Positions 17,369 to 55,851 of a DNA stretch of 64,000 nt are shown one piece after another (within the stretch, counting starts at the first letter, position 1; each line of letters starts with the position of its first letter). Origin of the DNA: Blastocatellia bacterium (GTDB taxonomy: Bacteria > Acidobacteriota > Blastocatellia > UBA7656 > JADIYM01). The translations under genes were made by a program, and so were the position numbers. The DNA is taken from assembly GCA_016705245.1 (NCBI GenBank), contig JADIYM010000003.1, positions 420,148 through 484,147 on the forward strand, given 5' to 3'. Below the pieces are notes generated by a model, which had not been told where the DNA came from, made no database searches, and saw nothing but the letters and a program-made list of their open reading frames with translations.

Positions 17369-19537
17369 TTACTTGCCGACGGCCATTGCGGCCGAGATTC
17401 GGGAGCGCCAGGCCGACTCGATATCAGAGACGGGAACATCGATCGCCGTCGCGCCCCGCACGTCGATCCTGAGGCGGTCACCGCCAACGATACCGATCTG
17501 ACGGCACACGACGCCGAGGCGCGAGCAGATCTCGGCGATCTTCGCGACGGCCCCAACCGGCGCCGACGCAACGACACGCGAGGGTGCCTCGCCGAACAGC
17601 AAAGTCATCGCGTCGAGGTCGACATCGACGTCGACGGTGGCGCCGACCGCCGCTCGCCGGTAACTCGAGAAACAGCACTCGGCCAGCGTTACGGCCAGGC
17701 CGCCGTCCGAGCAATCGTGCGCCGACACGATCCACTCTTCCGTGATGGCCGTTCGCACGGCTTCCTGGACTGCCTTCTCGCGATCGAGATTCAGTTCCGG
17801 CAAAGGACCCGTCAGCACACCGCGCACCGTTGCGAGGTATTCGCTGCCGCCGAGCACGGGCGTCTCGTCGCCGATGAGCAGGACCGCGTGGCCCTCCCGG
17901 GCGAACCACTGCGTCGTCACGTGCTTCGGATTGTCGATCAGTCCGACCATTCCGATGACCGGCGTCGGATATATCCCCCGTCCGTCCGTCTCGTTGTAGA
18001 AGCTGACGTTGCCTCCGGTCACCGGAGTTCCGAAGGCGACGCACGCCTCCGACATTCCGTCGATCGTCTCGCTGAACTGCCACATCACCTCCGGTCGCTC
18101 CGGCGAGGCGAAGTTCAAGCAGTTCGTCACCGCCAGCGGCCGGGCTCCCGTGACCGAAAGGTTTCGCGCCGCTTCAGCGACCGCATGCATGGCGCCGAGC
18201 CGCGGGTCGATCTCGCAGTATCGCGCGTTGCTGTCGAGCGTCATCGCAATCGCCTTGCGCGTCTCCTTGACCCGGAGCACCGCCGCGTCCGATCCCGGGA
18301 GTACGACAGTGTTCGTCCGCACCATGTGGTCGTACTGGTCGTAGACCCACTCCTTCGACGCAATGTTCGGCGACGCGAGCAGCGCCTTGAGCGCGCCCTC
18401 CGCATCGACGTCGACTGCGTTGTGCAGCACCTCGAGGACGACCTGACCCTCGGGTCTCGCCAGCGGTCGATGGTAGACCGGCGCTTCGTCTGTCAGAAAT
18501 ACGTTCGAGATCTCGGCGACGACCTCGCCGTGCTCGAGCACGCGCATCTTCCCGTCGTTGGTTACCTTGCCGACCACGACGGCGTCGAGTTCCCACTTGT
18601 GGAAGATCTCGATGACTTCCCTGGCGCGCCCGTGCGATGCAACGAGCAGCATCCGCTCCTGCGACTCGCTCAGCATGATCTCGTACGGCGTCATGCCGGT
18701 CTCGCGCTGAGGTACGAGGTCGAGCTCGATCTCGACGCCCGTGCCGCCCCGGAATCCCATCTCGCATGTCGAGCACGTGAGGCCGGCCGCGCCCATGTCC
18801 TGAATGCCGACGACCGCGCCGGACCGCATGGCCTCGAGGCACGCCTCGAGAAGCAGCTTCTCCAGAAACGGATCGCCGACCTGAACGGTCGGCCGCTTCT
18901 CGAACGCCTCGTCGTCGAACTCGGCCGACGCCATGGTCGCGCCGTGGATCCCGTCGCGTCCGGTCTTTGCGCCGACGTAGATCACCGGATTGCCGACGCC
19001 TTCGGCCTTGCCGAGAAAGATCTGGTCGCGCTTCATGATCCCGAGCGCGAACGCGTTCACGAGGGGGTTCTTGTCGTAGCGGTCCGCGAAGTGCACTTCG
19101 CCGCCGATCGTGGGGACGCCAAAGCAGTTTCCGTAGTGACCGATGCCTCGCACGACGCCCTCATGCCGCGATCGGCGCGCGCCCATCGTGAAGATGTCGC
19201 GCAGAATGCCGCCGACGCCGGTCGCCGCGCCCTGGAAGGGCTCGATGAAACTCGGGTGGTTGTGCGACTCGATCTTGAACGCGACCGTGTAGCCTTCGCC
19301 GATGTCGACGATGCCGGCGTTCTCACCCGGTCCCTGGACGACGCACTCACCCGTGGTCGGAAGCCGCTTCAGGTGCACGCGGGACGACTTGTAGGAGCAG
19401 TGCTCGCTCCACATGACCGAGAAGATCCCGAGCTCGACAATCGTCGGGGGCCGCTCTAGCAGCTCGACGATCCGGTTGTACTCCTCGGGCGTCAGCCCGT
19501 GTTCGGCAATGACCTCTGGCGTAAACGGCTGCGACAT
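17369..19537 (-). CDS. purL: phosphoribosylformylglycinamidine synthase subunit II
   Basis: Real start MSQPFTPEV at 19537 with SD AGGAGA. The 45 codons upstream in the ORF table translate repeat B1. Conserved PurL motifs ([25 protein letters not shown]...). Confidence 0.9.
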
Positions 19538-19630
19538 GGCGTCTCCTGTGGCGAAACTCGGCGTGAGTCGAACCGGGAACGTTAGCAGAGGATGCGCCCG
19601 GGTGGGAAAGTGGCCGGATTGGGGTGTCAA

Positions 19631-19757
19631 GAAGGCGTAGCCGTACAGAGAGCACAGAGTCACGGAGTGCACGGGCAGACAAACGGATCGTCTCTGTGTG
19701 CTTCGTGACTCTGTGCCCTCTGTCCGGCTACGCCTTCTTCCGGTCCCTGGCTACCGG
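19631..19757. repeat. Family-B palindromic repeat copy B1 (~31-bp arms CACAGAGTCACGGAG-type) plus a ~65-bp flank shared with copy B2
   Basis: GGCGTAGCCGTACAGAGAGCACAGAGTCACG ... CGTGACTCTGTGCCCTCTGTCCGGCTACGCC; flank CTTCTTCCGGTCCCTGGCTACCGG ~85% identical to 28518-28585. Confidence 0.8.
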
Positions 19758-19918
19758 ATCGGGCAGGTCAGGTCCAATTTTCGTGTGAGGGGATCTGGTC
19801 GAAGAATCCGGTAGCTCTCATTGAAGGGCAGAACGTGCCGGTGCTGCACTGCCTCCGAGGCCAGCTCGCAGCGGTCGCAACGTGCTCACCTGGAACCCAC
19901 GTCAATAAGGAGCAACCG

Positions 19919-20371
19919 ATGAATCGCAAGAGCATCCTCACCGTAATCGCAGCAGTCGTGATCCTCTCCGCCGGCTTTGCCGTCGGAGCCCAGGTTTCGC
20001 GCCCGTACCACAACGGCAGTGTCTGGGGGATCGGCCAGATTCGCGTCAAGCCGGGCATGGGCGAAGCCTACAAGACCTATCTCGCCACCGAGTGGAAGAC
20101 CAACCAGGAGGCCATGAAGAAGGAAGGCATCATCCTCTCGTACAAGGTCATTTCGACCGAGGCGCACGGCACGCAGGATTTCAACATGCTCCTGATGACC
20201 GAGTACAAGGACCTCGCGACATACGAGGCGAATCAGGACAAGGCCGACGCCCTCGCGCAACGGATCGTCGGCGACGACAAGAAGCAGGAGCAGGGGTACC
20301 GGGATCGATCCGAGATGCGCGAAGTGCTTGGAAATCGGCTGGGTCGCGAGATCGTCCTGGCGCCGAAGTAG
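19919..20371 (+). CDS. secreted hypothetical protein (150 aa) with signal peptide
   Basis: ATG 19919 with AAGGAG upstream; signal peptide MNRKSILTVIAAVVILSAGFAVGAQ. Confidence 0.55.
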   Translation: MNRKSILTVIAAVVILSAGFAVGAQVSRPYHNGSVWGIGQIRVKPGMGEAYKTYLATEWKTNQEAMKKEGIILSYKVISTEAHGTQDFNMLLMTEYKDLATYEANQDKADALAQRIVGDDKKQEQGYRDRSEMREVLGNRLGREIVLAPK

Positions 20372-20765
20372 GCAACGAACGGAGACCAGTGCGCGGACGG
20401 CCGCCGGGAGTCGAACCCGGAGCGCAAGCAACGGGCCAACTTCCCCGTCCGCGCATGTCCGTAAGACCAGACGCCGGACGATCAATCACGTCACGCGCTC
20501 GGAATCGCACCGTTTCCCGGCCGCAATGGCTATCCCCGGCCATTCCCACCGTCCCGTCCTTCCCGAACATCCCGACCATCGGCACATCCTCGCTCCACGA
20601 CCCCCCGGCAGGTGCCGGGGCCAGCCCTTCAGCGCGTCCAGATTCAGCCGTGTCGTCCGTGGTGTTTCGTCCGCCGCCGCAATCAACTCTTGATGTCTAC
20701 TCCCTGCCCCGTCAAACTGGAGACTCGCGAGGTCAAACGGTATAGCGATAGAGACTCTGGTCGGC

Positions 20766-21341
20766 ATGCCCAGGACAGGTGCACCTTCACAACACGATGT
20801 CACGATACTGCTCGCTCGCTGGAGCGGCGGCGACAAAGCTGCGCTCGACGAGCTCGTGCCGCTGGTGTACTCCGAGCTTCGACGTCTAGCGGCCTCGTAT
20901 CTGCGGCGCCGGTCGGGCCAGCGCCCGCTCGAGGCGACTTCGCTCGTGCACGAGGCGTACGTGCAACTCGCCGATCAGACCTCGATAACCTTCGAGAACC
21001 GGGCGCAGTTCTTCGGCCTCGCGGCAAAGCTGATGCGCGACATCCTCGTCGATCACGCGCGGCGGCGGCACGCGGCGAAACGTGGCGGCAACCAGTTGAT
21101 GTTGTCGCTAGGAGAGGCCGACCGCGTCGGAACGAAGCCTGACGTCGATCTGCTCCTCCTCGATCTTGCGCTGCAGCGACTCGCCGAGAGGGAGGCCGAC
21201 TACAGTCGCGTCATCGAGCTGCGCTTCTTCGGCGGCCTCACCATCGAAGAGACCGCGGTAGCGATGAAGCTCCCGCACGCAACCGTCGAGCGGTACTGGA
21301 ACTTTGCCAGGGCCTGGCTTCGCCGCGAGCTCGAGGCATAG
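20766..21341 (+). CDS. ECF-type RNA polymerase sigma factor, TIGR02999-like (kinase-associated subgroup)
   Basis: DVTILLARWSGGDKAALDELVPLVYSELRRLAASYL...TSLVHEAYVQL and C-terminal region-4 HTH LTIEETAVAMKLPHATVERYW; ends TAG. Confidence 0.8.
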   Translation: MPRTGAPSQHDVTILLARWSGGDKAALDELVPLVYSELRRLAASYLRRRSGQRPLEATSLVHEAYVQLADQTSITFENRAQFFGLAAKLMRDILVDHARRRHAAKRGGNQLMLSLGEADRVGTKPDVDLLLLDLALQRLAEREADYSRVIELRFFGGLTIEETAVAMKLPHATVERYWNFARAWLRRELEA

Positions 21342-21347
21342 AAACGC

Positions 21348-23181
21348 ATGATGTCTCCCTCCGACATGCGTCGTCTCGAGGAGCTGTTTCATCAAGCCGC
21401 CCAGCTCGACGGCGAAGAGAGGGCGGCGTTCGTCTCGCATGTAAAGACATCGGAACCCGAGCTCGGTCTGGAGCTGCAGGCGCTGCTCGAAGCGGACGGC
21501 CGCGAAGGAACGTTCCTGGGTGTGCCGGCCATCGAAGCGGCTCTCGAGGTAATCGAGGAAGCCGCGTCGGAGGTTCACTTTGGGTCGCACGCTCGGCCGT
21601 TACACGGTCGTCTCGCCGATCGGAAAGGGAGGCATGGGCGAGGTCTTTCTCGCCGAGGACTCGCAGTTGGGTCGCAAGGTTGCGCTCAAGCTGCTGCCGG
21701 GTCGTTTCACGGACAGCGAGGATCGTCTGCGCAGGTTCATGCAGGAGGCCAAGGCGGCCTCGGCGCTCAACCATCCGAACATCATCACGATTCACGAGAT
21801 TGGCGACGCTGACGGCACGCACTTCATTGCGACCGAGTTCATCGAGGGCCACACGCTGCGCAGCCATCTCGCCCACAGGAAACTCGCCCTCGCCGAAGCG
21901 GTCGATATCGCGATTCAGGTGACGAGCGCGATCGAGGCGGCGCACAAGGCCGGTATCGCTCACCGGGACATCAAGCCCGAGAACATCATGATAAGGCGCG
22001 ACGGCTACGCGAAGGTCCTGGATTTCGGTCTCGCGAAACTCACCGAGGCGCAACCACCCGGCGAGGCGAACGTGGATACGCACCACAGCACCGCGATCAT
22101 GAGCGGCACGAAGCCCGGGATGATCTTCGGAACGCCGAAGTACATGTCGCCCGAGCAGGCGCGCGGCCTGGTAACCGATGCTAGGACCGACATCTTCAGT
22201 CTCGGCGTCGTGATCTATGAGATGGTCACGGGTAACGCTCCGTTCTCGGGCGAAACGAGCCTGGACGTGGCGGCTGCGATCATCTCGAGCGAACCCGCTC
22301 CGCTGTCCGAGGCAGTGCCCGGAACGCCTGCGGAGCTCGAGCGCATCGTCGCCAAGGCGCTGCGCAAGGACCGCCGCGATCGCTACCAGTCGACGCACGG
22401 CCTGCTCGTGGATCTGAAGAAACTCAAGGAGGAGCTCGCCTTCGGCGAGCGGCTCGAAAGGGACGCGTCGATCCGGATTCCGGCCGGACAACCCCAAGGC
22501 AGCGAAAGGAAGAACCGTACAGGATTACTGTTGGCGCTAGTCGGCCTCCTCATCGCGCTGCCGATCGCCGTCGCCGTAGTGTGGCCATACCTGCGACCAC
22601 CGGCGCCTCCGGCCACGGAGAGCGTTGCGGCGCCAGAGCGCTTCATCAGCTACTGGATCGAGGTTCAGAAGTACCGGGACGGCAAGCCATATCTGGAGCC
22701 GATCCGTCTGCGCGACGACATCAACTTCGAAAAGGACTATCGGCTGCGGCTGAACATTGGCAGCACGCAGAGCGGCTACCTGTACCTGCTGAACGAGGGC
22801 CCGGTGCTCGACGGAGGCGTGCCCTCGTACGTCGTGATGTATCCGACGACCGCCAGCCAGCCTGCGCTGCTCGCCGCCAACCAGCAGGTTCACATACCTG
22901 AGCCGGGCTGGTTTCAGTTCGACGGACAGGAGGGCGTCGAGAAGATCTGGCTGGTCTGGGCCGATCGCGCGGTCGACGAGATCGAAGCCGTGAAGCAGTT
23001 CTCCAACGCACGAGACAAGGGACTCGTCGGCGACGCAGGTCTGCGCGCTGGAGTTGACGCCTTTCTGAAGTCCCACTCCCCTGCCGCGACTTCGGTCGAG
23101 CGGAGCGAGGCCACTGCCGAAGCAACCCTTCGCGGCCGCGGTGATATCCTCGTCCACGTCATCAGGCTCTCGCACCACTGA
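21348..23181 (+). CDS. Ser/Thr protein kinase with sigma-associated N-terminal extension, TM segment and extracellular DUF4384-like domain; apparent frameshift near 21585
   Basis: N-terminal MMSPSDMRRLEELFHQAAQLDGEERAAFVSHV... is typical of kinases paired with TIGR02999 sigma. Kinase motifs IGKGGMGEVFLAED, VALK, HRDIKPEN, DFGLAK, GTPKYMSPE lie in the +1 frame starting ~21580; the frame change falls at TTT 21581-21583. TM LLLALVGLLIALPIAVAVVWPYL; GYLYLLNEGP (DUF4384-like). Confidence 0.8.
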
Positions 23182-23250
23182 CCCTACGTCCGCCCGGACA
23201 CTCCGTGAGGGGGCTCACATCGAATCTGCGGTTCTTTCGTTGGAGTTTGT

Positions 23251-26200
23251 ATGGCAAGCAACACACGCACACTGCTTTCCCTCGTGCTCGTTCTGTGCTG
23301 CGCCCCAGACGTAATCGGCCAGTCGAGCCCGGATGCCCAATCGTTCGGTCCCGAGAAACCCGTCGAGCGCGCTATATCCGGAGCCGAATCGCATACGTAC
23401 CGAGTCGCGCTGACGGCTGGCCAGTTCGTTCTGTTCCGTCTCGACCAGAGGTCCCTCGACTGTGGCCTCGTCCTGTCGGCGCCGGACGGCAAGCAACTCG
23501 CCGAGATGGACTTCACCGGCACCGGCGAACAGGAATCGCTCGCAATCGAGGCAGTCACCACCGGCGATCATCGGCTGACTGTGCAGAGCAATCCGGCGGC
23601 ATCGTGGCTCGGCTCATACCGGCTCGAAGCGACGATCCATACGCCGGCATCGGCATCGGATCGCAAGCAGCTGGTTGCGCAAGCCTGATGTTCGAGAGCG
23701 TGGCGCTCCGAAAGTCCGGCCCGGATGCGGCGACGCAGTCGATCGGGAAGCTCGAACAGGCGCTGGCGATCTGGCGCGAGTTGCAGGAGCCGTCGTGGAT
23801 CGCAGTCACGTTGGGCGCCATCGGAGACGTACTCTACGGCACCGGTCCGGACAAGGCGCTCGAGTACTACGAGCAGGCATTGGCATCTGCACGCGAGTCC
23901 AGATTGCGGGCACGCGAAGCCGCCGCGCTGAGTGCGCTGAGTGGGTTCTGCTACGGCACGCGCGAGTATGAAAAGTCGATCGAATACAGCGAACAGGCCC
24001 TGGTAATCCAGCGCGAACTGAATGATCGGGCTGGCGAGGGCATCACGCTCAACGACCTGGGCATAACGTACAACACGATGCGTCGCGCCGACCGGGCCAT
24101 CCCTTATTACGAGCAGGCGCTGGCGATCAAGCGAGAGCTGAAGGACCGATCCGGAGAAGGAGGCACGCTCGCCGATGTCGGTTGGTCATACCTTGGCGCG
24201 AGCCGGTCGCAGGAGGCGATCGCGAGTTTCGAACAGGCGCTTGCGATCTTCCGCGAACTGAATGACCGGAGCCGCCAGGAAAGCGCCTTGAGCGGCCTTG
24301 GTGTCACAAGTCAGTCGCTGAGCCGGTTCGAGAAGGCCATTGAGTACTTCGAGCAGGCCCTAGTGGTCCATCGCGAACTGAAATCTCGGAGCAAAGAGGC
24401 CGTCACGCTCGCCAGTATTGCGAATGCGTATTCCGCGCTGCGCCGCTACGACAAGTATTTCGAATATGCCGAGCAGGCGCTCGCCATCGCTCGCGAGACC
24501 AAGACCCGTTACGCGGAAGGTCGAACGCTCAGCGACATGGGCGGGGTCTATCTCACGATTGGCCGCTTCGACAAGGCAACCGAGCACCTTGAGCAGGCAC
24601 TGGTCATCAATCGCGAACAGAAGGACGTGATGGTGGAAGGCTTCACGCTCCGCTCGCTCGGAACGGTCTTCAACAAACAAGGCCAGCCGGCGAAGGCCCT
24701 CGAGCAATACGAGCAGGCCCTGGCCATCTTCCGTGCCGCGAAATCCCGGCCGCACGAGGGCGGCACGCTGAACATGCTGGCGCAGGTCAACCGGTCGCAA
24801 CGCCAGTTCGAGAAGGCGATCGAGAACTCGGAACAGTCGCTGGCAATTGCCCGTGAGGTGAAGAATCCAGAGTACGAGTTGAATGCCCTCACGACTCTGG
24901 CCTGGACCGAGAATGACCGTGGGAATCTTGCGGCGGCGCGCTCGCGCATCGAGGAAGGGTTGAACGTCGCCGAGTCGCTTCGGTCCGATCTCGTGAGCCC
25001 GGCTTCGCGCACGTCGCTACTGGCTTCCGTGCAGACTTCCTACCAGCTCTACACGGACATCCTGATGCGCCAGCACAAGGCGGATCCGTCGAAGCGACTC
25101 GACGAACTGGCGGTCGACGTCAGTGAGCGGCAGCGCGCCCGCAGCCTCCTCGATCTTCTCGTGGAGGCCGGCGCCGATTTCCGCAAGGGAGTGGATCCGG
25201 TGCTGCTCGAACGCGAGCAGAGCCTGGCCAGACAACTCAGCGAGAAGGCGCGTACGCCAACTGACACGCCCGAGAAAGCTGCCAGAGTGAAGCTCGAAAT
25301 CGGCCAGCTCGAGACCGAGCTCGAACGGGCACAGGTCGCGATCCGCAAGAACAACCCGCACTATGCGTCGCTCGTTCAGCCACAGCCGCTCAAACTGAGG
25401 GAAATCCAGGCGCTGCTCGATCCGGACACGCTGCTGCTCGAGTACGCGCTTGGGACGGACCGCAGCTACCTTTGGGCGATCACCAGGGATTCTCTCAAGA
25501 GCTACGAGTTGCCAAAGGGAGCGGATATCGAGAAGAGTGCGCTCGCCGTCTACGGATTGCTGAAGACGCGCAATGCCGATATCTCGACAGCTGCCAGCGC
25601 GCTCGCCCAGATGGTGCTCGCGCCGGTCGCGGCTGACCTCGGGACCAGGCGCGTGGTCGTGGTGGCCGACGGCGCGCTGCAATACATTCCGTTTGCGGTA
25701 TTGCCGGCTCCGGCCGTTGCGGATGGGCGTCCGCTCATCGTGGATCACGAGGTCGTGAGCCTTCCGTCGGCATCGGCGCTGGCAGTCCAGCGTGCGGAGC
25801 TTGCGGGCCGGCAGCCGGCTCCGAAGCTTCTGGCGGTCATCGCCGATCCTGTGTTCGATGCCACGGATACACGGGTGAAGGCGGTTGCGCGAAAGCCTGC
25901 GGAGAAGGACGACGTGCAGGTGATCGCGGCGAACGACGCGCGAACGATCGAGCACCTCGCCGAGAACTCGAAGGCCGGCGCCGTGACGAAGCGTGTCGTG
26001 ATCCCGCGGCTTCCCTTCACCCGGCAGGAAGCCACGCGGCTGATCGCGCTTGCGCCGCCGAATTCGAGTCTCGGTGCGGTCGATTTCAATGCGAGTCGCG
26101 AGGCGGTGCTCGGCGGTGATCTTTCCCAGTATCGGTACGTGCACTTTGCGACGCACGGACTGCTGGACAGCGAGCGACCGGGTCTGTCGTCGCTCGTGCT

Positions 26201-26579
26201 GTCCATGGTGGATGCGGATGGCAACCCCAAGGACGGGTTCCTTCGCGCGAACGACATCTACAGCCTGAAGCTGCCTGCGGACCTCGTGGTGCTGAGTGCG
26301 TGCCAGACGGGGCTCGGCAAGGACGTGAAGGGTGAGGGGCTCATCGGATTGACGCGCGGCTTCATGTATGCGGGCGCGGCCCGGGTTGTCGTCAGCCTAT
26401 GGAACGTGAACGACAGAGCGACGGCCGAATTGATGACGAGGTTCTACGAAAGGATGCTGAAGCGGGGCGAGCGGCCAGCGGCTGCGTTACGCGCGGCGCA
26501 GGTGGAGATGTGGAAGCAGAAGCAGTGGCGATCGCCCTATTACTGGGGCGCGTTCGTGCTGCAAGGAGAATGGCGTTAG
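23251..26579 (+). CDS. secreted TPR-repeat CHAT-domain (caspase-like) protein with N-terminal signal peptide and PPC-like domain; apparent frameshift near 23670-23688
   Basis: Signal peptide MASNTRTLLSLVLVLCCAP. More than 10 TPR units of the EQALAI(F/W)RELxDRxGE type. C-terminal CHAT dyad HFATHG and LVVLSACQTG. N-terminal domain is in the +1 frame, ending in TGA at 23686-23688. Confidence 0.8.
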
Positions 26580-26654
26580 CGTGAGTGGATCCGGCGGCGG
26601 GTTGCGGTTTCCTTTATGAAAGAGAAGGCCATCTCGGAAAGGGAGGATGGTGTC

Positions 26655-27572
26655 GTGAGGAAATGGATCTGTCTGTTTGCCGTCGGTCTCTTCATCCACC
26701 TGTCGGTGGCTCAGGCTGTCGCGCAGGATCCCGCGGGGCCAGATGATGGAACGCGGCACCTGTGGAACACTGCGTACATCGCCCCCGCACCCGGCACGAC
26801 CGCGAGAAGGCGCCCCGCGAGGCGAATCTACCGGATTGCTACGCCGAAGGTGCCAGTGGCTGGCGTGACTGCGGACACGGTGGTCGGCGTGACGCTATGG
26901 AGGCTGCGACCGGCGCGCCGGTCCGACGCCGGCGAGCGGATCATCACGCACGAAGGCCCGGATGCTGTCGATTGGGTGCCGGAGCGCGTGTCGTCGACGA
27001 CGCGGCTTGCGCAAGGCGATCGCCTGCGGATCAGCATCGAGGCGGCCCGGACCGGCTACCTCTACGTTGTCAATCGCGAGGAATATGCCAACGGCACACG
27101 CGGCGAGCCGATCCTGATCTTTCCGACGACGCGCACACGCGGAGGCGACAACCAGGTCCGCGTGGGCCGCGTGATCGAGATTCCTGCGCAGGAAGACTCG
27201 CCTCCGTTCTTCACATTGCAAAAGAGCCAGCCCGAGCACGTGGCGGAGAGTGTGACGATCATTGTGTCACCGACGCCGATCGAGGGGTTGAACATTACGG
27301 ACAAGCAGCTGCGGTTGACGGAGGAGCAGGTCGCGGCGTGGGACAAGCAGTGGGGCGGTCAGGCTGGCCGTCTGGAGATGCAGGGTGGTGCCGGCAAGCC
27401 CTGGACGAGCGCGGAGAAGGACGCTGGCTCGGACGGTACGCGATCGCTGACGAAGGCTGATCCGGTCCCGCAGACGGTGTTATACCGCCCCGGCGTCGCG
27501 AGCGACCGCGGCGCGTTGTACCAAGTGAAACTGAACTACGCCCGCCGTTCGCCACGGAACAGGGCGCGGTAG
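26655..27572 (+). CDS. secreted DUF4384-like protein
   Basis: GTG start with GGGAGGA upstream; signal peptide RKWICLFAVGLFIHLSVAQAVAQ; RTGYLYVVNREEY motif resembling the kinase ectodomain GYLYLLNEGP; ends TAG. Confidence 0.65.
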   Translation: MRKWICLFAVGLFIHLSVAQAVAQDPAGPDDGTRHLWNTAYIAPAPGTTARRRPARRIYRIATPKVPVAGVTADTVVGVTLWRLRPARRSDAGERIITHEGPDAVDWVPERVSSTTRLAQGDRLRISIEAARTGYLYVVNREEYANGTRGEPILIFPTTRTRGGDNQVRVGRVIEIPAQEDSPPFFTLQKSQPEHVAESVTIIVSPTPIEGLNITDKQLRLTEEQVAAWDKQWGGQAGRLEMQGGAGKPWTSAEKDAGSDGTRSLTKADPVPQTVLYRPGVASDRGALYQVKLNYARRSPRNRAR

Positions 27573-27610
27573 CGCCCGGCCGCGCACACACGCGACTGTA
27601 GAGCGGCAGA

Positions 27611-27985
27611 TTCCGCGACCGCGGACCGGTCAGTTCCGCGACCGCGGACCGGTCAATTCCGCGACCGCGGACCGGTCAACTCCGCGACCGCGGACCGGTC
27701 AACTCCGCGACCGCGGACCGGTCAACTCCGCGACCGCGGACCGGTCAACTCCGCGACCGCGGACCGGTCAACTCCGCGACCGCGGACCGGTCAACTCCGC
27801 GACCGCGGACCGGTCGATTCCGCGACCGCGGACCGGTCGATTCCGCGACTGCGGACCGGTCAACCTGGGCGACCGCGGAGCGGTCGATGAAGAAGCCTGG
27901 GTCGCGCGCGGGCGAGTGCAGCGAGCCCTCGCGTGACCCGCGGAACCGCCGGCCGCCACGCACCGACCGCGGAGCGGTCGCATCT
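27611..27985 (+). repeat. Tandem array of a 23-bp REP-like unit (about 12 good copies, then degenerate copies)
   Basis: Period 23 (starts at 27611, 27634, 27657, ...); unit contains the palindromes CCGCGG and GACCGGTC; no unique spacers, so not CRISPR. Confidence 0.85.
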
Positions 27986-28262
27986 TCAGTCCCAAAGATA
28001 ACGTGCGTCGCAGGCGACACCGTGCTCGTCGAGTAGTGAGACGAACTCCTCGTCGTAGGACACGCGCCGGTGGTGCTCCTTCTGTGCCGCGATGTAACGG
28101 CGCACGGCGGGCAATTCCGATCTTCCCACGGAGAACCCTCCGTATCCGTCCTGCCAGCTGAAGTCCCTCGAGACCGCCTCGTGGCGTTTCAGCCACGTCG
28201 TTCGCTCGATGCTTCGTCGGGAACACGATGTGCAGGTAGACCTCGATCAGTGTCCGTGCCAT
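27986..28262 (-). pseudogene. REP-associated tyrosine transposase (RAYT, IS200/IS605 TnpA-like) remnant, internally deleted and frameshifted
   Basis: N-terminus MARTLIEVYLHIVFPTKHR in one frame. C-terminus RDFSWQDGYGGFSVGRSELPAVRRYIAAQKEHHRRVSYDEEFVSLLDEHGVACDARYLWD in another. Only ~91 codons total versus ~150-170 for intact RAYTs. Confidence 0.7.
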
Positions 28263-28299
28263 GGGCCTTGCTCTCTTGGCCCATGATCGAAATCCGCAC

Positions 28300-28510
28300 G
28301 GCCTGAGTTGCTTCCCACTCGCAACAAGGCGACCGCCCGGCGGTCGCGCGTGGCTGGCGGCATGCGGGTCGCGCGCAGGCTCGCTGCACTCGCCCCCGCG
28401 CGACCCACGGCTATTTCATCGACCGCTCCGCGGTCGCGGAATTAACGCTCCACGATCGTGGAATTAACGCTCCGCGGTCGCGAATTACCGCTCCGCGGTC
28501 GCGGAATTCA
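28300..28510 (-). repeat. Right inverted terminal segment of the RAYT element plus 3-4 inverted copies of the 23-bp REP unit
   Basis: Reverse complement of 28300-28425 aligns with 27870-27985 (GGTCGATGAA...GGGTCGCGCG...GCGAGTGCAGCGAGCC...). Units GACCGCTCCGCGGTCGCGGAATT at 28421, 28466 and 28487. Confidence 0.7.
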
Positions 28511-28517
28511 CGCTCCG

Positions 28518-28580
28518 CTGTGTGCTTTGTGACTCCGTGCTCTCTGTGCGGCTACGCCTTCGTGCGGTCCCTAGCTACCG
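28518..28580. repeat. Family-B repeat copy B2 (half-palindrome plus shared flank, direct-repeat partner of B1 flank)
   Basis: TGTGTGCTTTGTGACTCCGTGCTCTCTGTGCGGCTACGCCTTCGTGCGGTCCCTAGCTACCGG vs 19690-19757. Confidence 0.7.
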
Positions 28581-28582
28581 GG

Positions 28583-29365
28583 TCAGCCGCACGCAGCCAT
28601 TCTCACGTCGATCAGGAATCGGTCGATCTCGGCGATATTGGGCGCCGCGTCCGGCAACGACGATCGCTCGTATGCACGCAGCATCTCGGCTTCCAGCATC
28701 GAGATCTTCTGGGCGTGTCGCTCGACTTCGTCACGCCCCATGGTCGTGCCATCGCCGGATCGCTTTCGCTCAATGAGGTCGGCAATCCCATCGACGTTGC
28801 GATCCGCGGCGAGCCGGGTCACGTTGCACTCCACCTCTCCAGTCGACATCAAGTGGATTCCCGTCAGAAGCACGCGATAGACATAGAGCAGCGTCTTTAC
28901 CCGCTTCGGCTCCTCGGACGTGAACGCCTTCCATCGTCCGCGGACGAAGCCACGATAGTGATGATAAAGCGTCCGGTTCACGAATCCGTGAGCGAGCGAG
29001 CGGAGTTGCTCGAACTCGGGCCGGGCGACGACGACGTGCGGTGACGTGATCTGTTCGAGGACGTAGCCGTTTTTTGCCACGAGCAACCGCAGGTACTTGC
29101 CGATGTCGTGCGAAAGCAGGTCGATCCGCATGCCGTCGACCGTATCGTCACGGTCGTGCGACTCGCGCGGCGGACGAAGCGAGATTACGGACTCGAGAGG
29201 AAGAACGTGGGCCCCCCGAATGTCCACGTCGCTCTCCGACGACGGAAATCCATAGAGGTGCGCGCCGCTGACTACGGCAAACAATGGAAGTGCTGGGCCG
29301 AGATCCGAGACGAGAGACGCCAGCCACGGAGCGTCTAGTGCGGCCGCATTCCTGCTCATTGACAA
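28583..29365 (-). CDS. nucleotidyltransferase-fold protein (GS...DxD NTase motif; DUF4037/KNTase-like)
   Basis: VVSGAHLYGFPSSESDVDIRGAHV matches the pol-beta-type NTase signature hG[GS]x9-13DxD; 260 aa; flanked on both sides by family-B repeats. Confidence 0.55.
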   Translation of the reverse strand: MSMSRNAAALDAPWLASLVSDLGPALPLFAVVSGAHLYGFPSSESDVDIRGAHVLPLESVISLRPPRESHDRDDTVDGMRIDLLSHDIGKYLRLLVAKNGYVLEQITSPHVVVARPEFEQLRSLAHGFVNRTLYHHYRGFVRGRWKAFTSEEPKRVKTLLYVYRVLLTGIHLMSTGEVECNVTRLAADRNVDGIADLIERKRSGDGTTMGRDEVERHAQKISMLEAEMLRAYERSSLPDAAPNIAEIDRFLIDVRMAACG

Positions 29366-29593: not shown

Positions 29594-30301
29594 TTATGAC
29601 GCCTTCGCCAGCTCCGCCAGGGCCGCCGCAAGCGACGTGAAGATACCTCGACCGTCCGCGGAGCCCAGTGCATCCTCGCTCGCTCTCTCGGGGTGCGGCA
29701 TCATGCCGAGCACGTTGCCGCGGTCGTTGATGATTCCGGCGATGTTGTTACGCGAGCCGTTCGGGTTTGAGTCCGGCGTTGGCTCGCCCTTCGCATCGAC
29801 GTACCGGAACAGCACCTGTCCCTCGCCCTCGAGCCTCTCGAGCGTCTCGTCGTCGCAAAAGTAGTTCCCGTCGCCGTGCGCGATCGGAATCGACAGCACC
29901 TGGCCCTTCTCGTAGTCGCGCGTGAACATCGTGTCGGACCGTTCGACACGCAGGTTCACATGCCGGCATGCAAATGCGAGGCTTGCATTGCGCAGCAGCG
30001 CGCCCGGCAGCAAACCCGACTCGCAGAGGATCTGAAATCCGTTGCAGATCCCGAGCACGATTCCGCCGTGATCCGCGAACTTCACGACCGAGCGCATTAT
30101 CGGTGAAAGACTCGCGATAGCCCCCGTGCGCAGGTAGTCGCCGTACGAGAACCCGCCCGGCAGGACGATGCAGTCGTACCCGTCGAGATCCGAATCGCGG
30201 TGCCAGATGAAGTCGACCGGCTGGCCAATCACCTTGCTGATGACGTGGTAGGCATCGTGGTCGCAGTTCGACCCCGGAAAGACGACGACTCCGAACTTCA
30301 T
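29594..30301 (-). CDS. purQ: phosphoribosylformylglycinamidine synthase subunit I (glutaminase)
   Basis: [14 protein letters not shown]...GICNGFQIL...HPER motifs of PurQ/class-I GATase. Confidence 0.9.
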
Positions 30302-30543
30302 TCGTGAATCTCCACTCGATAGTCTTCGATGACGGGATTCGACAGGATCTCGCGCGCTATGCGATCGAGCTCGGCGAGCGCCGCCGCCGGCGCGAGTGAC
30401 TCGGCCACTTCGATCTCGAAGTACTTGCCCTGCCGCACCGCGGCGATCGCGTTCGAACCGTTCGTCTCGATCGCGTGATGGATGGCCTTGCCCTGCGGGT
30501 CCAGCACCCCGCGCTTCAACGTCACATAGACTTCGGCTTTCAT
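30298..30543 (-). CDS. purS: phosphoribosylformylglycinamidine synthase subunit PurS
   Basis: 81 aa, [21 protein letters not shown]...; ATGA overlap with purQ. Confidence 0.85.
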
Positions 30544-30558
30544 AGACCTCTCGTTGGC

Positions 30559-31881
30559 TCAGGCCGTCGCCGGACCAAGCACTCGCTCAAAGATTCGATC
30601 CACGTTTCGGAGTTGCGTCCCCAGGTCGAAGACGCGTTCGAGTTCCCCGACCGACATGTGTGCCCCGATTGCCGGGTCCTCGAGCACAAGCTCTCGGAAC
30701 TCACGGTCCTCGTCCCACACTCGCATCGCCTGCGGCTGCACCAGGGCGTAGGCATCCTCGCGGCTCACACCCTTTCGCGTGAGCTCGAGCAGAACCTGTC
30801 CGCTGAAGATCACGCCCCGAAGCGCGTTCAGGTTCTCGCGCATGCGCTCCGGGAACACCACGAGTCCATCGACGAGCCACGTCGTCTTTGCCAGCAGATA
30901 GTCGGTCAGGATGCACGAGTCCGGCAGGATGACGCGCTCCACCGACGAATGCGAAATGTCGCGCTCGTGCCAGAGCGCGTTGTTCTCGATCGCCGGCACG
31001 ACGTTGCCGCGGACGACGCGGGCGAGTCCGCAGATCTGTTCGCAGACGACCGGGTTGCGCTTGTGCGGCATTGCAGACGAGCCCTTCTGTCCCTTGCCAA
31101 ACGGCTCCTGCGCCTCGCGCACCTCGGTCCGCTGCAGGTGCCGCACCTCGAGCGCGATCTTCTCGAGCGTCGAACAGAGCACGGCGAGCGCGGAAACGAA
31201 CTCGGCATACCGATCGCGCTGCACGACCTGCGTCGAAATCGGCGCGAAGCCCAGGCCGAGCCGCTGGCAGACACGCTCCTCCACCTCGGGGTCGAGATGG
31301 GCGAAAGTGCCGACCGCGCCGCTGATCTTCCCGACGCTGACAGCCGCAACCGCGCGGCCGAGGCGCTCGATAGCCCGCTCGACCTCCGCGTAATAGAGAA
31401 GCAGCACGAGGCCGAACGTCGTCGGCTCGGCGTGCACGCCGTGCGTGCGCCCGATCATTGCGGTGTCCTTGTGTTCCACCGCCCGGCGCCGCAGCGCATC
31501 GGCAAGTTCCCGGCACCGTGCGAGCAGGCGCTCGCCCGATGCCTTGAGCAGGAGTCCGTTTGCCGTGTCGACGACGTCCGACGAAGTCAGGCCGTAGTGC
31601 ACGAACCGCGCCGACTCGCCGACGCGCTCGGCGACGGCCGTCGTGAAGGCGATGACGTCGTGTCGCGTCACGCGCTCGATCTCGTTCACGCGAGCGACGA
31701 AGGCCTCGTCGACCGGTGACGCGGACGTCCGTTCGCGAATCGTAGCCGCGTCGGACGCCGGGATCGTCCCCATTTCGGCGTGCACGTCGCAGACCGCGAC
31801 TTCGACGTCGAGCCACGCCTGAAAGCGCGCGACGTCGGACCAGATGGCGCCCATTTCGGGCAGTGTGTAGCGTTCGATCAT
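30559..31881 (-). CDS. purB: adenylosuccinate lyase
   Basis: 440 aa; fumarate-lyase signature [10 protein letters not shown]; N-terminal [16 protein letters not shown] typical PurB. Confidence 0.9.
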
Positions 31882-55597: not shown

Positions 55598-55851
55598 ATC
55601 ACGACCGGCTCGGCCAAAAAAAACCTGAACCCCTCCGAGGCCCGTGTCGTAGTGTGCGCTGTTCACGTTCTTTCTGAATTTGCACTGGAGCCGAAATCCC
55701 GCTTGGGCGGGGTGCGGGGGAACCAACTTTTGGGGTGAATTCCGCGGAGGGCCGCGGATAGAGCATCTTCCAGCTCGAACCCGTCAGCTAACCTCGTAGG
55801 CTGGTGGAAGAGCCGTCTGTCAATGGGCGACTCCTGGACTTGCTGTGTCCC

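What the first reader, a model, noticed from the sequence alone, without database searches (positions are those of the whole stretch)
19919..27572. ECF sigma (TIGR02999-like) / Ser-Thr kinase / secreted TPR-CHAT / DUF4384 module
Four consecutive plus-strand genes. (1) An ECF sigma of the kinase-associated subgroup. (2) A Ser/Thr kinase with the characteristic sigma-partner N-terminal extension, a TM helix and an extracellular DUF4384-like domain (GYLYLLNEGP). (3) A signal-peptide-bearing protein with a PPC-like N-domain, more than 10 TPRs and a C-terminal CHAT caspase-like domain (HFATHG...LSACQTG). (4) A secreted protein with another DUF4384-like motif (GYLYVVNREEY). The shared DUF4384-like element on the kinase ectodomain and on a stand-alone periplasmic protein, plus a periplasmic caspase-like protease, suggests a transmembrane signalling circuit. 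Proteolysis or ligand capture outside the membrane would control kinase activity and, through it, the ECF sigma. The functional link is inference from gene adjacency and domain sharing only.
Basis: inference. Interest (0 to 1): 0.6.

Follow-up and report, generated by a model that had tools for sequence, protein, structure and literature searches.

The report
Sigma-kinase cassette with secreted CHAT protease
This soil-type acidobacterial genome carries a gene cassette, conserved in hundreds of related species, that joins a phosphorylation-activated sigma factor and its membrane kinase to an exported caspase-like protease and an exported sensor-type protein; in this copy two of the genes are frameshifted.

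Summary
The domain calls hold. There is a TIGR02999/ECF43-type sigma factor, a Hanks-type Ser/Thr kinase with one membrane helix and a DUF4384-like outer domain, a signal-peptide TPR-CHAT protein and a signal-peptide DUF4384 protein ("g4").

Two corrections are needed:
- 19919 starts a fifth gene, a small exported 150-aa protein. The sigma gene starts at 20766.
- In this window the kinase carries a +1 T at 21579 and the CHAT gene a -1 C at 23684. A 99%-identical relative has both genes intact.

The four genes are strongly co-conserved in Blastocatellia. CHAT lies directly upstream of g4 in 66 of 70 loci, and the full set is present in 40 of 46. The whole g4-type domain also occurs elsewhere fused behind a membrane helix to kinase, CHAT, TIR or cyclase domains, so it is probably an outside-facing sensor.

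Most likely this is an ECF43-type sigma/kinase switch whose input side is extended by a periplasmic TPR-CHAT protease and a DUF4384 sensor. The order of events is inferred, not shown.

The closest precedents are EcfP/PknT, the DdvA anti-sigma factor, and Csx29/Csx30/RpoE of type III-E CRISPR. I found no description of this cassette, so I rate it a new variant of a known kind.

The parts
19919..20371 (+). Small exported 150-aa protein ('small150') with an N-terminal hydrophobic signal and a dimeric alpha/beta-barrel (ABM/Dabb/EthD-like) fold. It is an occasional accessory or target gene of the cassette, and it is not the sigma factor.
20690..20718 (+). Conserved promoter-like element TTGATG-17 nt-CAAACT, about 50 bp upstream of the sigma start codon.
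   Evidence: It is the only block conserved in the sigma upstream region across the window, L006, L008 and L007, and it occurs once in the window. The consensus promoter scan did not call it. Function was not tested.
20766..21341 (+). ECF sigma factor of 191 aa, ECF43-like. The sigma-2.2 motif is LEATSLVHEAY, with T58 as the putative phospho-acceptor.
   Evidence: TIGR02999 scores 194.8 bits (cut-off 126.15) and PF07638 gives 1e-50. Across 40 cassette sigmas the consensus is LQTTALINEAY, and T58 is conserved in 39 of 40. That matches the ECF43 QTTA/STTA motif described in PMC13147305 and PMC8999054.
21348..23181 (+). Ser/Thr kinase gene, frameshifted in this window by an extra T at 21579. It comprises a 77-aa N-terminal extension (21348-21578), the Hanks kinase domain (about 21601-22398), a membrane helix (22522-22584), and a DUF4384-like ectodomain (core about 22726-22956, GYLYLLNEGP at 22774) with a C-terminal tail.
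   Evidence: Frames were established, and the indel was mapped against L001. The intact 610-aa orthologue is P0001. Pkinase gives 5e-48 and DUF4384 20.8 bits. Motifs and the membrane helix are, and hhalign against g4 gives 93.4%.
23251..26579 (+). Exported TPR-CHAT protein gene, frameshifted in this window by a missing C at 23684. It comprises a signal peptide (about 23251-23322), a PPC-like domain (about 23389-23589), eleven 40-aa TPR-like repeats (about 23736-25124), and the CHAT domain (about 25590-26570) with the catalytic His in HFATHG (26142-26159) and Cys in LSACQTG (26292-26312).
   Evidence: Supported. The intact orthologue in L001 is 1109 aa. The His and Cys motifs are at least 95% conserved in 56 orthologues, and by my reading of their printed N-termini nearly all have a signal-like hydrophobic segment; the script flagged 17 of the 17 it could score.
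26616..27572 (+). g4: an exported 318-aa protein with a DUF4384 core (about 27009-27278, GYLYVVNREEY at 27054) embedded in a larger, highly conserved sensor-type domain.

Best explanation
This is a conserved five-gene envelope-signalling cassette of Blastocatellia (Acidobacteriota).

Its core is an ECF43-type pair. The sigma factor is intrinsically inactive because its sigma-2.2 region lacks the acidic patch that contacts RNA polymerase. A single-pass Hanks-type kinase switches it on by phosphorylating the conserved threonine, T58 here.

The input side is extended by two exported proteins encoded just downstream.
- One is a TPR-CHAT caspase-fold protease with an intact His/Cys dyad.
- The other, g4, has a DUF4384-containing domain that serves elsewhere as the outer sensor of one-pass receptors.

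The proposed sequence is as follows. g4, related to the kinase's own DUF4384-like ectodomain, binds an envelope or external cue. It then engages the TPR array of the protease, the kinase ectodomain, or both. CHAT cleavage of g4 or of the kinase ectodomain changes kinase activity, and the kinase phosphorylates sigma to turn on its regulon.

What is shown: the domain identities, the predicted topology, the conserved catalytic and phospho-acceptor residues, the co-conservation, and the fusions. What is inferred: who binds whom, the CHAT substrate, and the direction of signal flow.

In this particular window the kinase and CHAT genes each carry a one-base frameshift. This copy is therefore either inactive or mis-sequenced.
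For: -
- The sigma has the ECF43 motif, with Thr conserved in 39 of 40 cassette sigmas. The mechanism is known from EcfP/PknT and EcfK/PknS.
- The kinase has complete catalytic motifs, one membrane helix, and an N-terminal extension like the ~81-residue one of PknS.
- CHAT orthologues keep the His/Cys motifs at >=95% in 56 sequences. By my reading of the printed N-termini, nearly all have a signal-like hydrophobic segment followed by a PPC-like domain.
- The kinase ectodomain and g4 are homologous (hhalign 93.4%; tblastn E=6e-5).
- Co-conservation: 66 of 70 and 40 of 46 loci. Exceptions are mostly loci with 2-3 tandem CHAT genes. Four of four kinase-first samples have TPR-CHAT downstream. The flanking genes differ between lineages.
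- Fusions: the full g4-type domain follows a membrane helix after kinase domains (P0397, P0458; P0392 also combines Pkinase with a g4-type domain, but its sequence was not inspected), CHAT (P0501), TIR (P0421) and cyclase (P0434) domains. It is also fused to a secreted TPR protein, P0472.
- Precedents link TPR-CHAT, ECF sigma and DUF4384: DdvA and the Csx30 C-terminal domains.
- The genes are tightly spaced and no internal terminator is predicted.
Against: - There is no experimental or structural evidence for any contact or cleavage.
- The g4 model is poor (pLDDT 55), and its fold match is a generic beta-sandwich that suggests no ligand.
- The DUF4384 match on the kinase and the PPC match are below Pfam thresholds.
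- The signal peptides were judged from sequence only. No dedicated predictor was available.
- In the CHAT-g4 fusion P0501, the CHAT domain lies on the cytoplasmic side of the membrane helix. The two domains therefore do not always share a compartment.
- Co-transcription with sigma equally fits CHAT and g4 being outputs.
- The locus survey was seeded with g4 and kept the 80 best of 437 matches, and kinase-first sampling covered only four loci.
- In this window two genes are frameshifted, so the cassette may not work here at all.
Confidence: 0.5

Rival explanations
1. CHAT and g4 are outputs, not inputs. The sigma/kinase pair senses the cue through the kinase ectodomain alone. The exported protease and g4, co-transcribed with or induced by the sigma, are effectors that remodel the envelope, process surface proteins or attack competitors.
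For: The genes lie downstream in the same apparent operon. ECF sigmas usually drive adjacent genes; this is established knowledge summarised in PMC7826278. small150, another exported protein, sits in varying positions next to ECF-kinase pairs, as a target gene might. The PPC-like domain is typical of secreted proteases.
Against: g4 shares its core domain with the kinase's sensor side. The g4-type domain is used as the outer domain of receptors with kinase, cyclase and TIR outputs, which argues for sensing rather than an effector role. The conserved element upstream of sigma looks like a housekeeping-type promoter, TTGATG-17-CAAACT, not a typical ECF promoter. That reading is weak.
Confidence: 0.25
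2. In this genome the cassette is a decaying, non-functional remnant. The kinase and CHAT frameshifts are real mutations, and the locus no longer signals.
For: The window has one extra T at 21579 and one missing C at 23684 relative to L001, and close relatives have intact genes. Of the 14 indel events against L001, nine fall in intergenic DNA although most of the stretch is coding. That pattern fits real variation filtered by selection better than random sequencing error. The kinase shows 6 non-synonymous to 2 synonymous differences, against 12 to 57 in the other genes (Fisher p=0.0016). Three changes at conserved kinase positions arose on the window lineage: V204A next to HRD, L260F and P328A. 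A neighbouring aminotransferase gene also carries a 104-bp deletion. L088 shows a truncated kinase next to a transposase and no adjacent sigma gene, so decay does occur elsewhere.
Against: Both changes are one-base length changes in short homopolymers (TT to TTT, CCC to CC), which is the typical long-read error. Related long-read assemblies show fragmented CHAT genes (L089). The CHAT gene shows 9 synonymous to 3 non-synonymous differences, and sigma and g4 are intact. No read data are available.
Confidence: 0.4
3. It is an anti-phage or conflict system. The exported TPR-CHAT senses a phage or predator protein in the periplasm, as proposed for DdvA, and the sigma switches on defence genes elsewhere.
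For: DdvA/DdvS and Csx29/Csx30/RpoE both couple TPR-CHAT to ECF sigmas in defence. EcfK/PknS controls a type VI secretion system against amoebae. g4-type domains are also fused to TIR domains. Some loci carry 2-3 diversified CHAT paralogues.
Against: PADLOC gives only generic kinase and TPR matches and nothing for sigma, g4 or small150. The neighbours here are purine-biosynthesis and housekeeping genes, not defence genes. In one subclade the cassette sits at a fixed site next to a gene I judged ferritin-like by eye, which suggests vertical inheritance. g4 is unusually conserved (68% mean column identity), unlike fast-evolving defence sensors.
Confidence: 0.12

Closest known systems
ECF43 sigma/Hanks-kinase pairs (EcfP/PknT of Vibrio parahaemolyticus; EcfK/PknS of Xanthomonas citri)
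   Same: The sigma belongs to the PF07638/TIGR02999 type and has an adjacent one-pass Ser/Thr kinase. Its sigma-2.2 acidic motif is replaced by (S/Q)TTA with a conserved Thr. The kinase has an N-terminal extension of about 80 residues, and no anti-sigma gene is present.
   Different: Here the pair is followed by an exported TPR-CHAT protease and an exported DUF4384 protein, and the kinase ectodomain is DUF4384-like. The papers read do not mention such partners for EcfP/PknT or EcfK/PknS. The window sigma keeps one acidic residue (EATS).
[quoted passage not shown]
   Same: A TPR-CHAT module with a His/Cys dyad sits outside the cytoplasmic membrane and is genetically tied to an ECF sigma. In both cases it is proposed to sense a periplasmic protein signal and act by proteolysis.
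   Different: DdvA is one polypeptide, made of a zinc-binding anti-sigma domain, a membrane helix and TPR-CHAT, and it holds its sigma by sequestration. Here TPR-CHAT is a free exported protein with a PPC-like N-domain, and sigma control is by a kinase. phmmer against PDB sequences matched only TPR proteins, with no match to any CHAT-containing chain.
Type III-E CRISPR accessory set Csx29 (TPR-CHAT), Csx30 and RpoE (craspase)
   Same: It has the same three ingredients: a TPR-CHAT protease, an ECF sigma, and, in one group of Csx30 proteins, a DUF4384 C-terminal domain on the protease substrate.
   Different: Craspase is cytoplasmic, RNA-guided and bound to Cas7-11, and sigma is held by Csx30/Csx31. 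Here there are no cas genes nearby, the protease is exported, and a kinase controls sigma.
DUF4384 (PF14326) fused to caspase-like proteases (orthocaspases)
   Same: DUF4384 recurrently accompanies caspase-fold proteases, as it does here by gene adjacency.
   Different: Here DUF4384 lies on separate polypeptides, the kinase and g4. It is part of a larger conserved domain of about 280 residues that behaves as a receptor ectodomain.

Membership tests
ECF43-type (phosphorylation-activated) ECF sigma factors | ECF sigma with sigma-2 and sigma-4 regions only, of the PF07638/TIGR02999 type | tested here: met
   PF07638 gives 1e-50 over residues 10-190. TIGR02999 scores 194.8 bits against a cut-off of 126.15.
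ECF43-type (phosphorylation-activated) ECF sigma factors | Gene for a Hanks-type Ser/Thr kinase next to the sigma gene | tested here: met
   The kinase starts 6 bp after the sigma stop codon. This arrangement is conserved in 40 of 46 loci.
ECF43-type (phosphorylation-activated) ECF sigma factors | The acidic DAED motif of sigma-2.2 is replaced by (S/Q)TTA with a conserved phospho-acceptor Thr | tested here: met
   The window has L-E-A-T58-S and the cassette consensus is L-Q-T-T-A. Thr is present in 39 of 40 sequences. The motif is as described.
ECF43-type (phosphorylation-activated) ECF sigma factors | No co-encoded anti-sigma factor | tested here: met
   None of the five gene products matches an anti-sigma family in Pfam or NCBIfam. 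The kinase N-terminal extension has no family match, so a sigma-binding role for it is not excluded.
ECF43-type (phosphorylation-activated) ECF sigma factors | Assignment by the ECF classification group models; phosphorylation of the Thr by the partner kinase | not testable with these tools
   The ECF group HMMs are not available here, and phosphorylation needs an experiment.
Hanks-type receptor Ser/Thr kinase (PknS/PknT-like) | Complete catalytic motifs, one membrane helix and an extracytoplasmic C-terminal domain | tested here: met
   Pkinase gives 5e-48. KVALK, HRDIKPEN, DFG and GTPKYMSPE are present, with one hydrophobic helix at 22522-22584.
Hanks-type receptor Ser/Thr kinase (PknS/PknT-like) | Intact open reading frame in this window | tested here: not met
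   An extra T at 21579 separates the N-terminal extension from the kinase body. The orthologue P0001 is intact at 610 aa.
TPR-CHAT caspase-fold proteases | CHAT domain with the catalytic His and Cys, preceded by a TPR array | tested here: met
   PF12770 scores 244.9 bits. HFATHG and LSACQTG are at least 95% conserved in 56 orthologues. There are eleven 40-residue repeats.
TPR-CHAT caspase-fold proteases | Intact open reading frame in this window | tested here: not met
   A missing C at 23684 separates the signal peptide and PPC-like part from the TPR-CHAT part. The gene is intact at 1109 aa in L001.
DdvA-like anti-sigma factors | Cytoplasmic zinc-binding anti-sigma domain and a membrane helix fused to the periplasmic TPR-CHAT | tested here: not met
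   The N-terminus is a signal-like hydrophobic segment followed by a PPC-like domain, and no anti-sigma domain is found. No sequence match to a solved CHAT-containing chain was found.
Type III-E craspase accessory module (Csx29/Csx30/RpoE) | Association with Cas7-11 and a CRISPR array; cytoplasmic TPR-CHAT | tested here: not met
   The neighbours are purine-biosynthesis and housekeeping genes. PADLOC gives no cas-related match. The protease has a conserved signal-like N-terminus.
DUF4384 (PF14326) | Match to the family model above its gathering score | tested here: met
   g4 scores 33.1 bits against 27.
DUF4384 (PF14326) | Same match for the kinase ectodomain | tested here: inconclusive
   It scores 20.8 bits, below 27. 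However, hhalign to the g4 family gives 93.4% and E=2.4e-7. About a quarter of the listed kinase homologues carry a precomputed PF14326 hit.

The most novel reading that the evidence does not exclude
TPR-CHAT protease, a DUF4384-type domain and an ECF sigma factor form an old, reusable signalling triad. In Blastocatellia it works across the membrane together with a sigma-phosphorylating kinase. The same triad would have been co-opted in the cytoplasm by type III-E CRISPR systems (Csx29, Csx30 with a DUF4384 tail, RpoE) and in fused form by DdvA. If so, DUF4384 would be the docking or substrate domain for CHAT proteases. This cassette would then be the first case of a protease controlling a bacterial receptor kinase that activates a sigma factor by phosphorylation.
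Probability: 0.2. Interest if true: 0.75.

Novelty: new variant of a known kind. Interest (0 to 1): 0.55.

Why it matters
- The cue for ECF43 sigma/kinase pairs is unknown in the studied cases. Here the sensor side comes with two conserved, exported partner proteins that can be tested directly.
- Periplasmic CHAT proteases are almost unstudied. DdvA is the only characterised example linked to a sigma factor.
- DUF4384 has no assigned function, although it recurs next to caspase-fold proteases and on a craspase substrate.
- A cassette conserved across hundreds of Blastocatellia species, with fusion evidence tying its parts together, offers a defined system for three questions: what an exported CHAT protease cleaves, what DUF4384 binds, and how that reaches a sigma factor.

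Tried and rejected
- An exact-sequence look-up of the window's sigma protein found nothing, so the source assembly was not identified.
- The consensus promoter scan found no promoter in 19400-28600. The only three terminator-like sites were outside the genes or on the other strand.
- Direct BLASTP of the last 113 residues of the kinase against g4 found nothing, because I had cut off the DUF4384 part. This was redone as a profile comparison.
- PADLOC gave only generic kinase and TPR hits.
- PDB sequence searches found only TPR proteins for the CHAT protein, and nothing for the g4 profile.
- Pfam at E<=1 found nothing credible for small150, the kinase N-terminal extension, or the small acidic proteins of distant cassettes.
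- Rfam found nothing in or near the cassette.
- The supplementary files of the ECF re-classification paper are not held, so its neighbourhood tables could not be checked for CHAT or DUF4384.
- I considered that the sigma-kinase and CHAT-g4 pairs are independent neighbours. I rejected this on the 40 of 46 co-occurrence and the fusions.
- I considered programmed frameshifting. I rejected it because close relatives encode both proteins in a single frame.
Full report
**What is in the interval**

The region 19919-27572 holds five plus-strand genes, not four.
- 19919-20371 encodes a 150-aa protein with an N-terminal hydrophobic segment and no Pfam, NCBIfam or PADLOC match.
- The sigma factor is at 20766-21341, after a 394-bp gap. 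TIGR02999 scores 194.8 bits against a cut-off of 126.15, and PF07638 gives E=1e-50.
- The kinase follows 6 bp later, the TPR-CHAT gene 69 bp after that, and the DUF4384 gene (g4) 36 bp after that.
- No terminator-like site lies between the genes.

**Domain checks**

- The kinase has Pkinase at E=5e-48, with KVALK, HRDIKPEN, DFG and GTPKYMSPE present and one hydrophobic helix at 22522-22584.
- Its C-terminal ectodomain matches DUF4384 only below threshold (20.8 bits against 27).
- A profile of 115 kinase ectodomains aligns to a profile of g4 proteins with 93.4% probability and E=2.4e-7 over 99 columns, centred on the GYLY motif. tblastn also picks up this similarity.
- The third gene has CHAT at 244.9 bits, the HFATHG and LSACQTG motifs, and eleven TPR-like repeats spaced exactly 40 residues apart. 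Its PPC match is weak (21 bits against 25.9).
- g4 matches DUF4384 above threshold (33.1 bits against 27).

- The kinase N-terminal extension (21348-21578) and the kinase body (from 21580) are in different frames.
- The signal peptide and PPC-like part of the CHAT gene (23251-23688) and the TPR-CHAT part (to 26579) are also in different frames.
- Codon-position GC content supports all four pieces as coding.
- A genome 99.1-99.9% identical over 21.8 kb (L001, GCA_963852865.1, a 4.06-Mb contig) has the same genes intact at 610 and 1109 aa.
- Base by base, the window has one extra T at 21579 (TT to TTT) and lacks one C at 23684 (CCC to CC).

I cannot tell whether these are real mutations or sequencing errors.

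Evidence that they are real:
- Nine of the 14 indel events against L001 lie in intergenic DNA, although most of the stretch is coding.
- The kinase shows 6 non-synonymous to 2 synonymous differences, against 12 to 57 for the other genes (Fisher p=0.0016).
- Three changes at conserved kinase positions arose on the window lineage.

Evidence that they are errors:
- Both are homopolymer length changes.
- Related long-read assemblies show fragmented CHAT genes.

**Conservation**

- The kinase family (N-terminal extension, kinase, membrane helix, this ectodomain) and the g4 family are both large and nearly confined to Blastocatellia/Pyrinomonadaceae.
- A scan of one genome per species found 437 g4-encoding stretches. 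The 80 best are almost all labelled Blastocatellia, Pyrinomonadaceae or Acidobacteriota.
- I mapped the cassette proteins onto these loci with tblastn. A CHAT domain lies directly upstream of g4 in 66 of 70 loci with at least 1.5 kb of flank.
- Sigma, kinase, CHAT and g4 lie on one strand in 40 of 46 loci with at least 7.5 kb of flank.
- Most exceptions have two or three tandem TPR-CHAT genes, which push sigma and kinase beyond the flank. One locus has CHAT downstream of g4.
- Sampling from the kinase side instead, all four kinase homologues on long contigs have TPR-CHAT just downstream. Three of them show a DUF4384 gene after it.
- Flanking genes differ between lineages. In one subclade the cassette sits at a fixed site after a gene I judged ferritin-like by eye.
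- In the window, going by the Pfam calls on the 99%-identical L001, it lies between purL and purQ/purS/purB.

**Conserved functional residues and topology**

- Among 56 CHAT orthologues, the His and Cys motifs are at least 95% conserved.
- By my reading of the printed N-termini, nearly all have a signal-like hydrophobic segment, usually ending near an AQ, followed by the PPC-like domain. The script's motif filter could score only 17, and all 17 passed.
- g4 proteins have a signal-like N-terminus. The rest of the protein is unusually conserved, with 68% mean column identity over the 24-sequence alignment.
- Across 40 cassette sigmas, the sigma-2.2 segment reads LQTTALINEAY. The window has LEATSLVHEAY, and its T58 is conserved in 39 of 40.
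- This is the ECF43 signature. The acidic motif that normally contacts RNA polymerase is replaced by (S/Q)TTA, and the partner kinase phosphorylates the second Thr. This was shown for EcfP/PknT and EcfK/PknS.
- PknS also has an N-terminal helical extension of about 81 residues before its kinase domain, matching the 77-residue extension here.

**What the g4 domain is**

- A profile search of 1.84 billion representative proteins found 443 clusters at E<=1e-30, mostly stand-alone proteins of about 300 aa.
- Several hits carry the whole g4-type domain (profile positions about 30-305, not just the DUF4384 core) at the C-terminus of larger proteins.
  - It follows a membrane helix after Ser/Thr kinase (P0397, P0458; P0392 also combines Pkinase with a g4-type domain), CHAT (P0501), TIR (P0421; also P0374) and nucleotide cyclase (P0434) domains. 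The helix was seen by eye in the four sequences read (P0397, P0501, P0421, P0434) and assumed for the rest.
  - It also follows a calcineurin-like phosphoesterase domain (P0470).
  - It is fused directly to a secreted TPR protein (P0472).
- This is the pattern of an outward-facing sensor domain wired to varied cytoplasmic outputs. The kinase, CHAT and TPR fusions independently tie g4 to the other cassette members.
- The AlphaFold2 model of g4 was poor (pLDDT 55). Its better-defined core is a beta-sandwich with only generic structural neighbours.

**The fifth gene**

- Homologues occur in 10 of 85 loci. Seven lie directly upstream of g4, one lies further upstream among tandem CHAT genes (L024), and two lie upstream of sigma (L001, L006), as in the window.
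- It also lies divergently beside a different ECF-kinase pair in L090/L091, and it is unlinked in L092.
- It is best regarded as an occasional accessory or target gene.

**Most likely mechanism**

- The core is an ECF43-type switch, in which kinase phosphorylation of T58 lets sigma bind RNA polymerase. This step rests on strong family knowledge plus the conserved motif.
- The exported TPR-CHAT protease and g4 most plausibly act on the input side, in the same compartment as the kinase's DUF4384-like ectodomain. g4 would act as sensor, and CHAT would cleave g4 or the kinase ectodomain to change kinase activity.
- This part is inference from topology, shared domains, co-conservation, fusions and precedent.
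- The rival view is that CHAT and g4 are exported outputs of the sigma. It is not excluded.
- A defence role is possible but has no direct support.

**Comparison with known systems and novelty**

- The sigma/kinase pair meets the testable ECF43 criteria.
- The cassette is not a DdvA-type anti-sigma factor, because it has no anti-sigma domain and no fusion.
- It is not a craspase accessory set, because it has no cas context and the protease is exported.
- It does share with those systems the pairing of TPR-CHAT with an ECF sigma. With one group of Csx30 proteins it also shares a DUF4384 domain.
- Full-text searches found no paper describing an ECF-kinase-CHAT-DUF4384 cassette. The only paper combining TPR-CHAT, periplasm and sigma factor is the DdvA study.
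- I therefore rate it a new variant of a known kind and of moderate interest. Its state in this particular window is uncertain.

Noticed in passing
window 27591-27890 and 28417-28521: Right after the g4 stop codon there is a head-to-tail array of about 12 copies of a 23-bp unit (CGACCGCGGACCGGTCAAyTCCG), each containing a short palindrome. Three or four inverted copies lie about 600 bp further on, and a 44-nt inverted repeat (27898-27941 / 28364-28407) lies in between. The near-identical relative L001 has 22 bp more here, roughly one extra unit, so copy number appears to vary between strains.
   Followed up: partly
window 55679-55817 (+): A c-di-AMP riboswitch (RF00379) scores 91 bits against a gathering score of 38. 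It is the only Rfam match in the window.
   Followed up: no
window 17369-19672 (-) and 29594-31881 (-): The cassette, together with the repeat region and an RlaP-family gene, lies between purL and purQ/purS/purB on the opposite strand. These genes were named from the Pfam calls on the 99%-identical L001. It looks like an insertion splitting a purine-biosynthesis cluster.
   Followed up: partly
window 13263 and 19163-19176: Relative to L001, the window lacks 104 bp inside an Aminotran_4 gene, which shifts the frame. It also lacks 53+1 bp inside purL, which is in frame overall. The 26 differences in purL are all synonymous, and substitutions are dense in the two 1-kb bins next to that deletion, which suggests a recombined tract.
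   Followed up: partly
L028:6072-6485, L040:6369-6764, L043:710-1087 and 31 more: In the more distant cassettes, a 110-160-aa acidic protein is encoded between the kinase and TPR-CHAT genes. It has no signal peptide and no credible Pfam match at E<=1 in the three tested. It has conserved W-T-I, G-C-H-I and WSNN motifs and an alanine/serine-rich C-terminal end (…AASAYA, …ASASA). It is absent from the window, where that gap is only 69 bp.
   Followed up: partly
proteins P0374, P0421, P0434, P0470, P0432: The full g4-type domain also occurs fused to TIR domains, a nucleotide cyclase, a calcineurin-like phosphoesterase and a large WD40 protein. It therefore appears to be a general receptor ectodomain with many outputs.
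   Followed up: partly
L090:8225-9456 and L091:3261-4492: A small150 homologue lies divergently next to a different PF07638 sigma and a 977-aa kinase with a Tricorn/beta-propeller ectodomain. This hints that small150 is a common neighbour or target of this sigma type.
   Followed up: partly
L040:3171-3662, L044:3146-3628 and about 16 other loci: In one Pyrinomonadaceae subclade, a conserved gene of about 160 aa ends 20-40 bp before the cassette's sigma gene. I judged it ferritin-like by eye and did not test it against any family library.
   Followed up: no
L088:6674-9668 and L089: Other copies of the cassette also look damaged. L088 has a kinase truncated at its N-terminus beside a Y1 transposase gene and no adjacent sigma gene. 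L089 has CHAT genes broken into several pieces.
   Followed up: no
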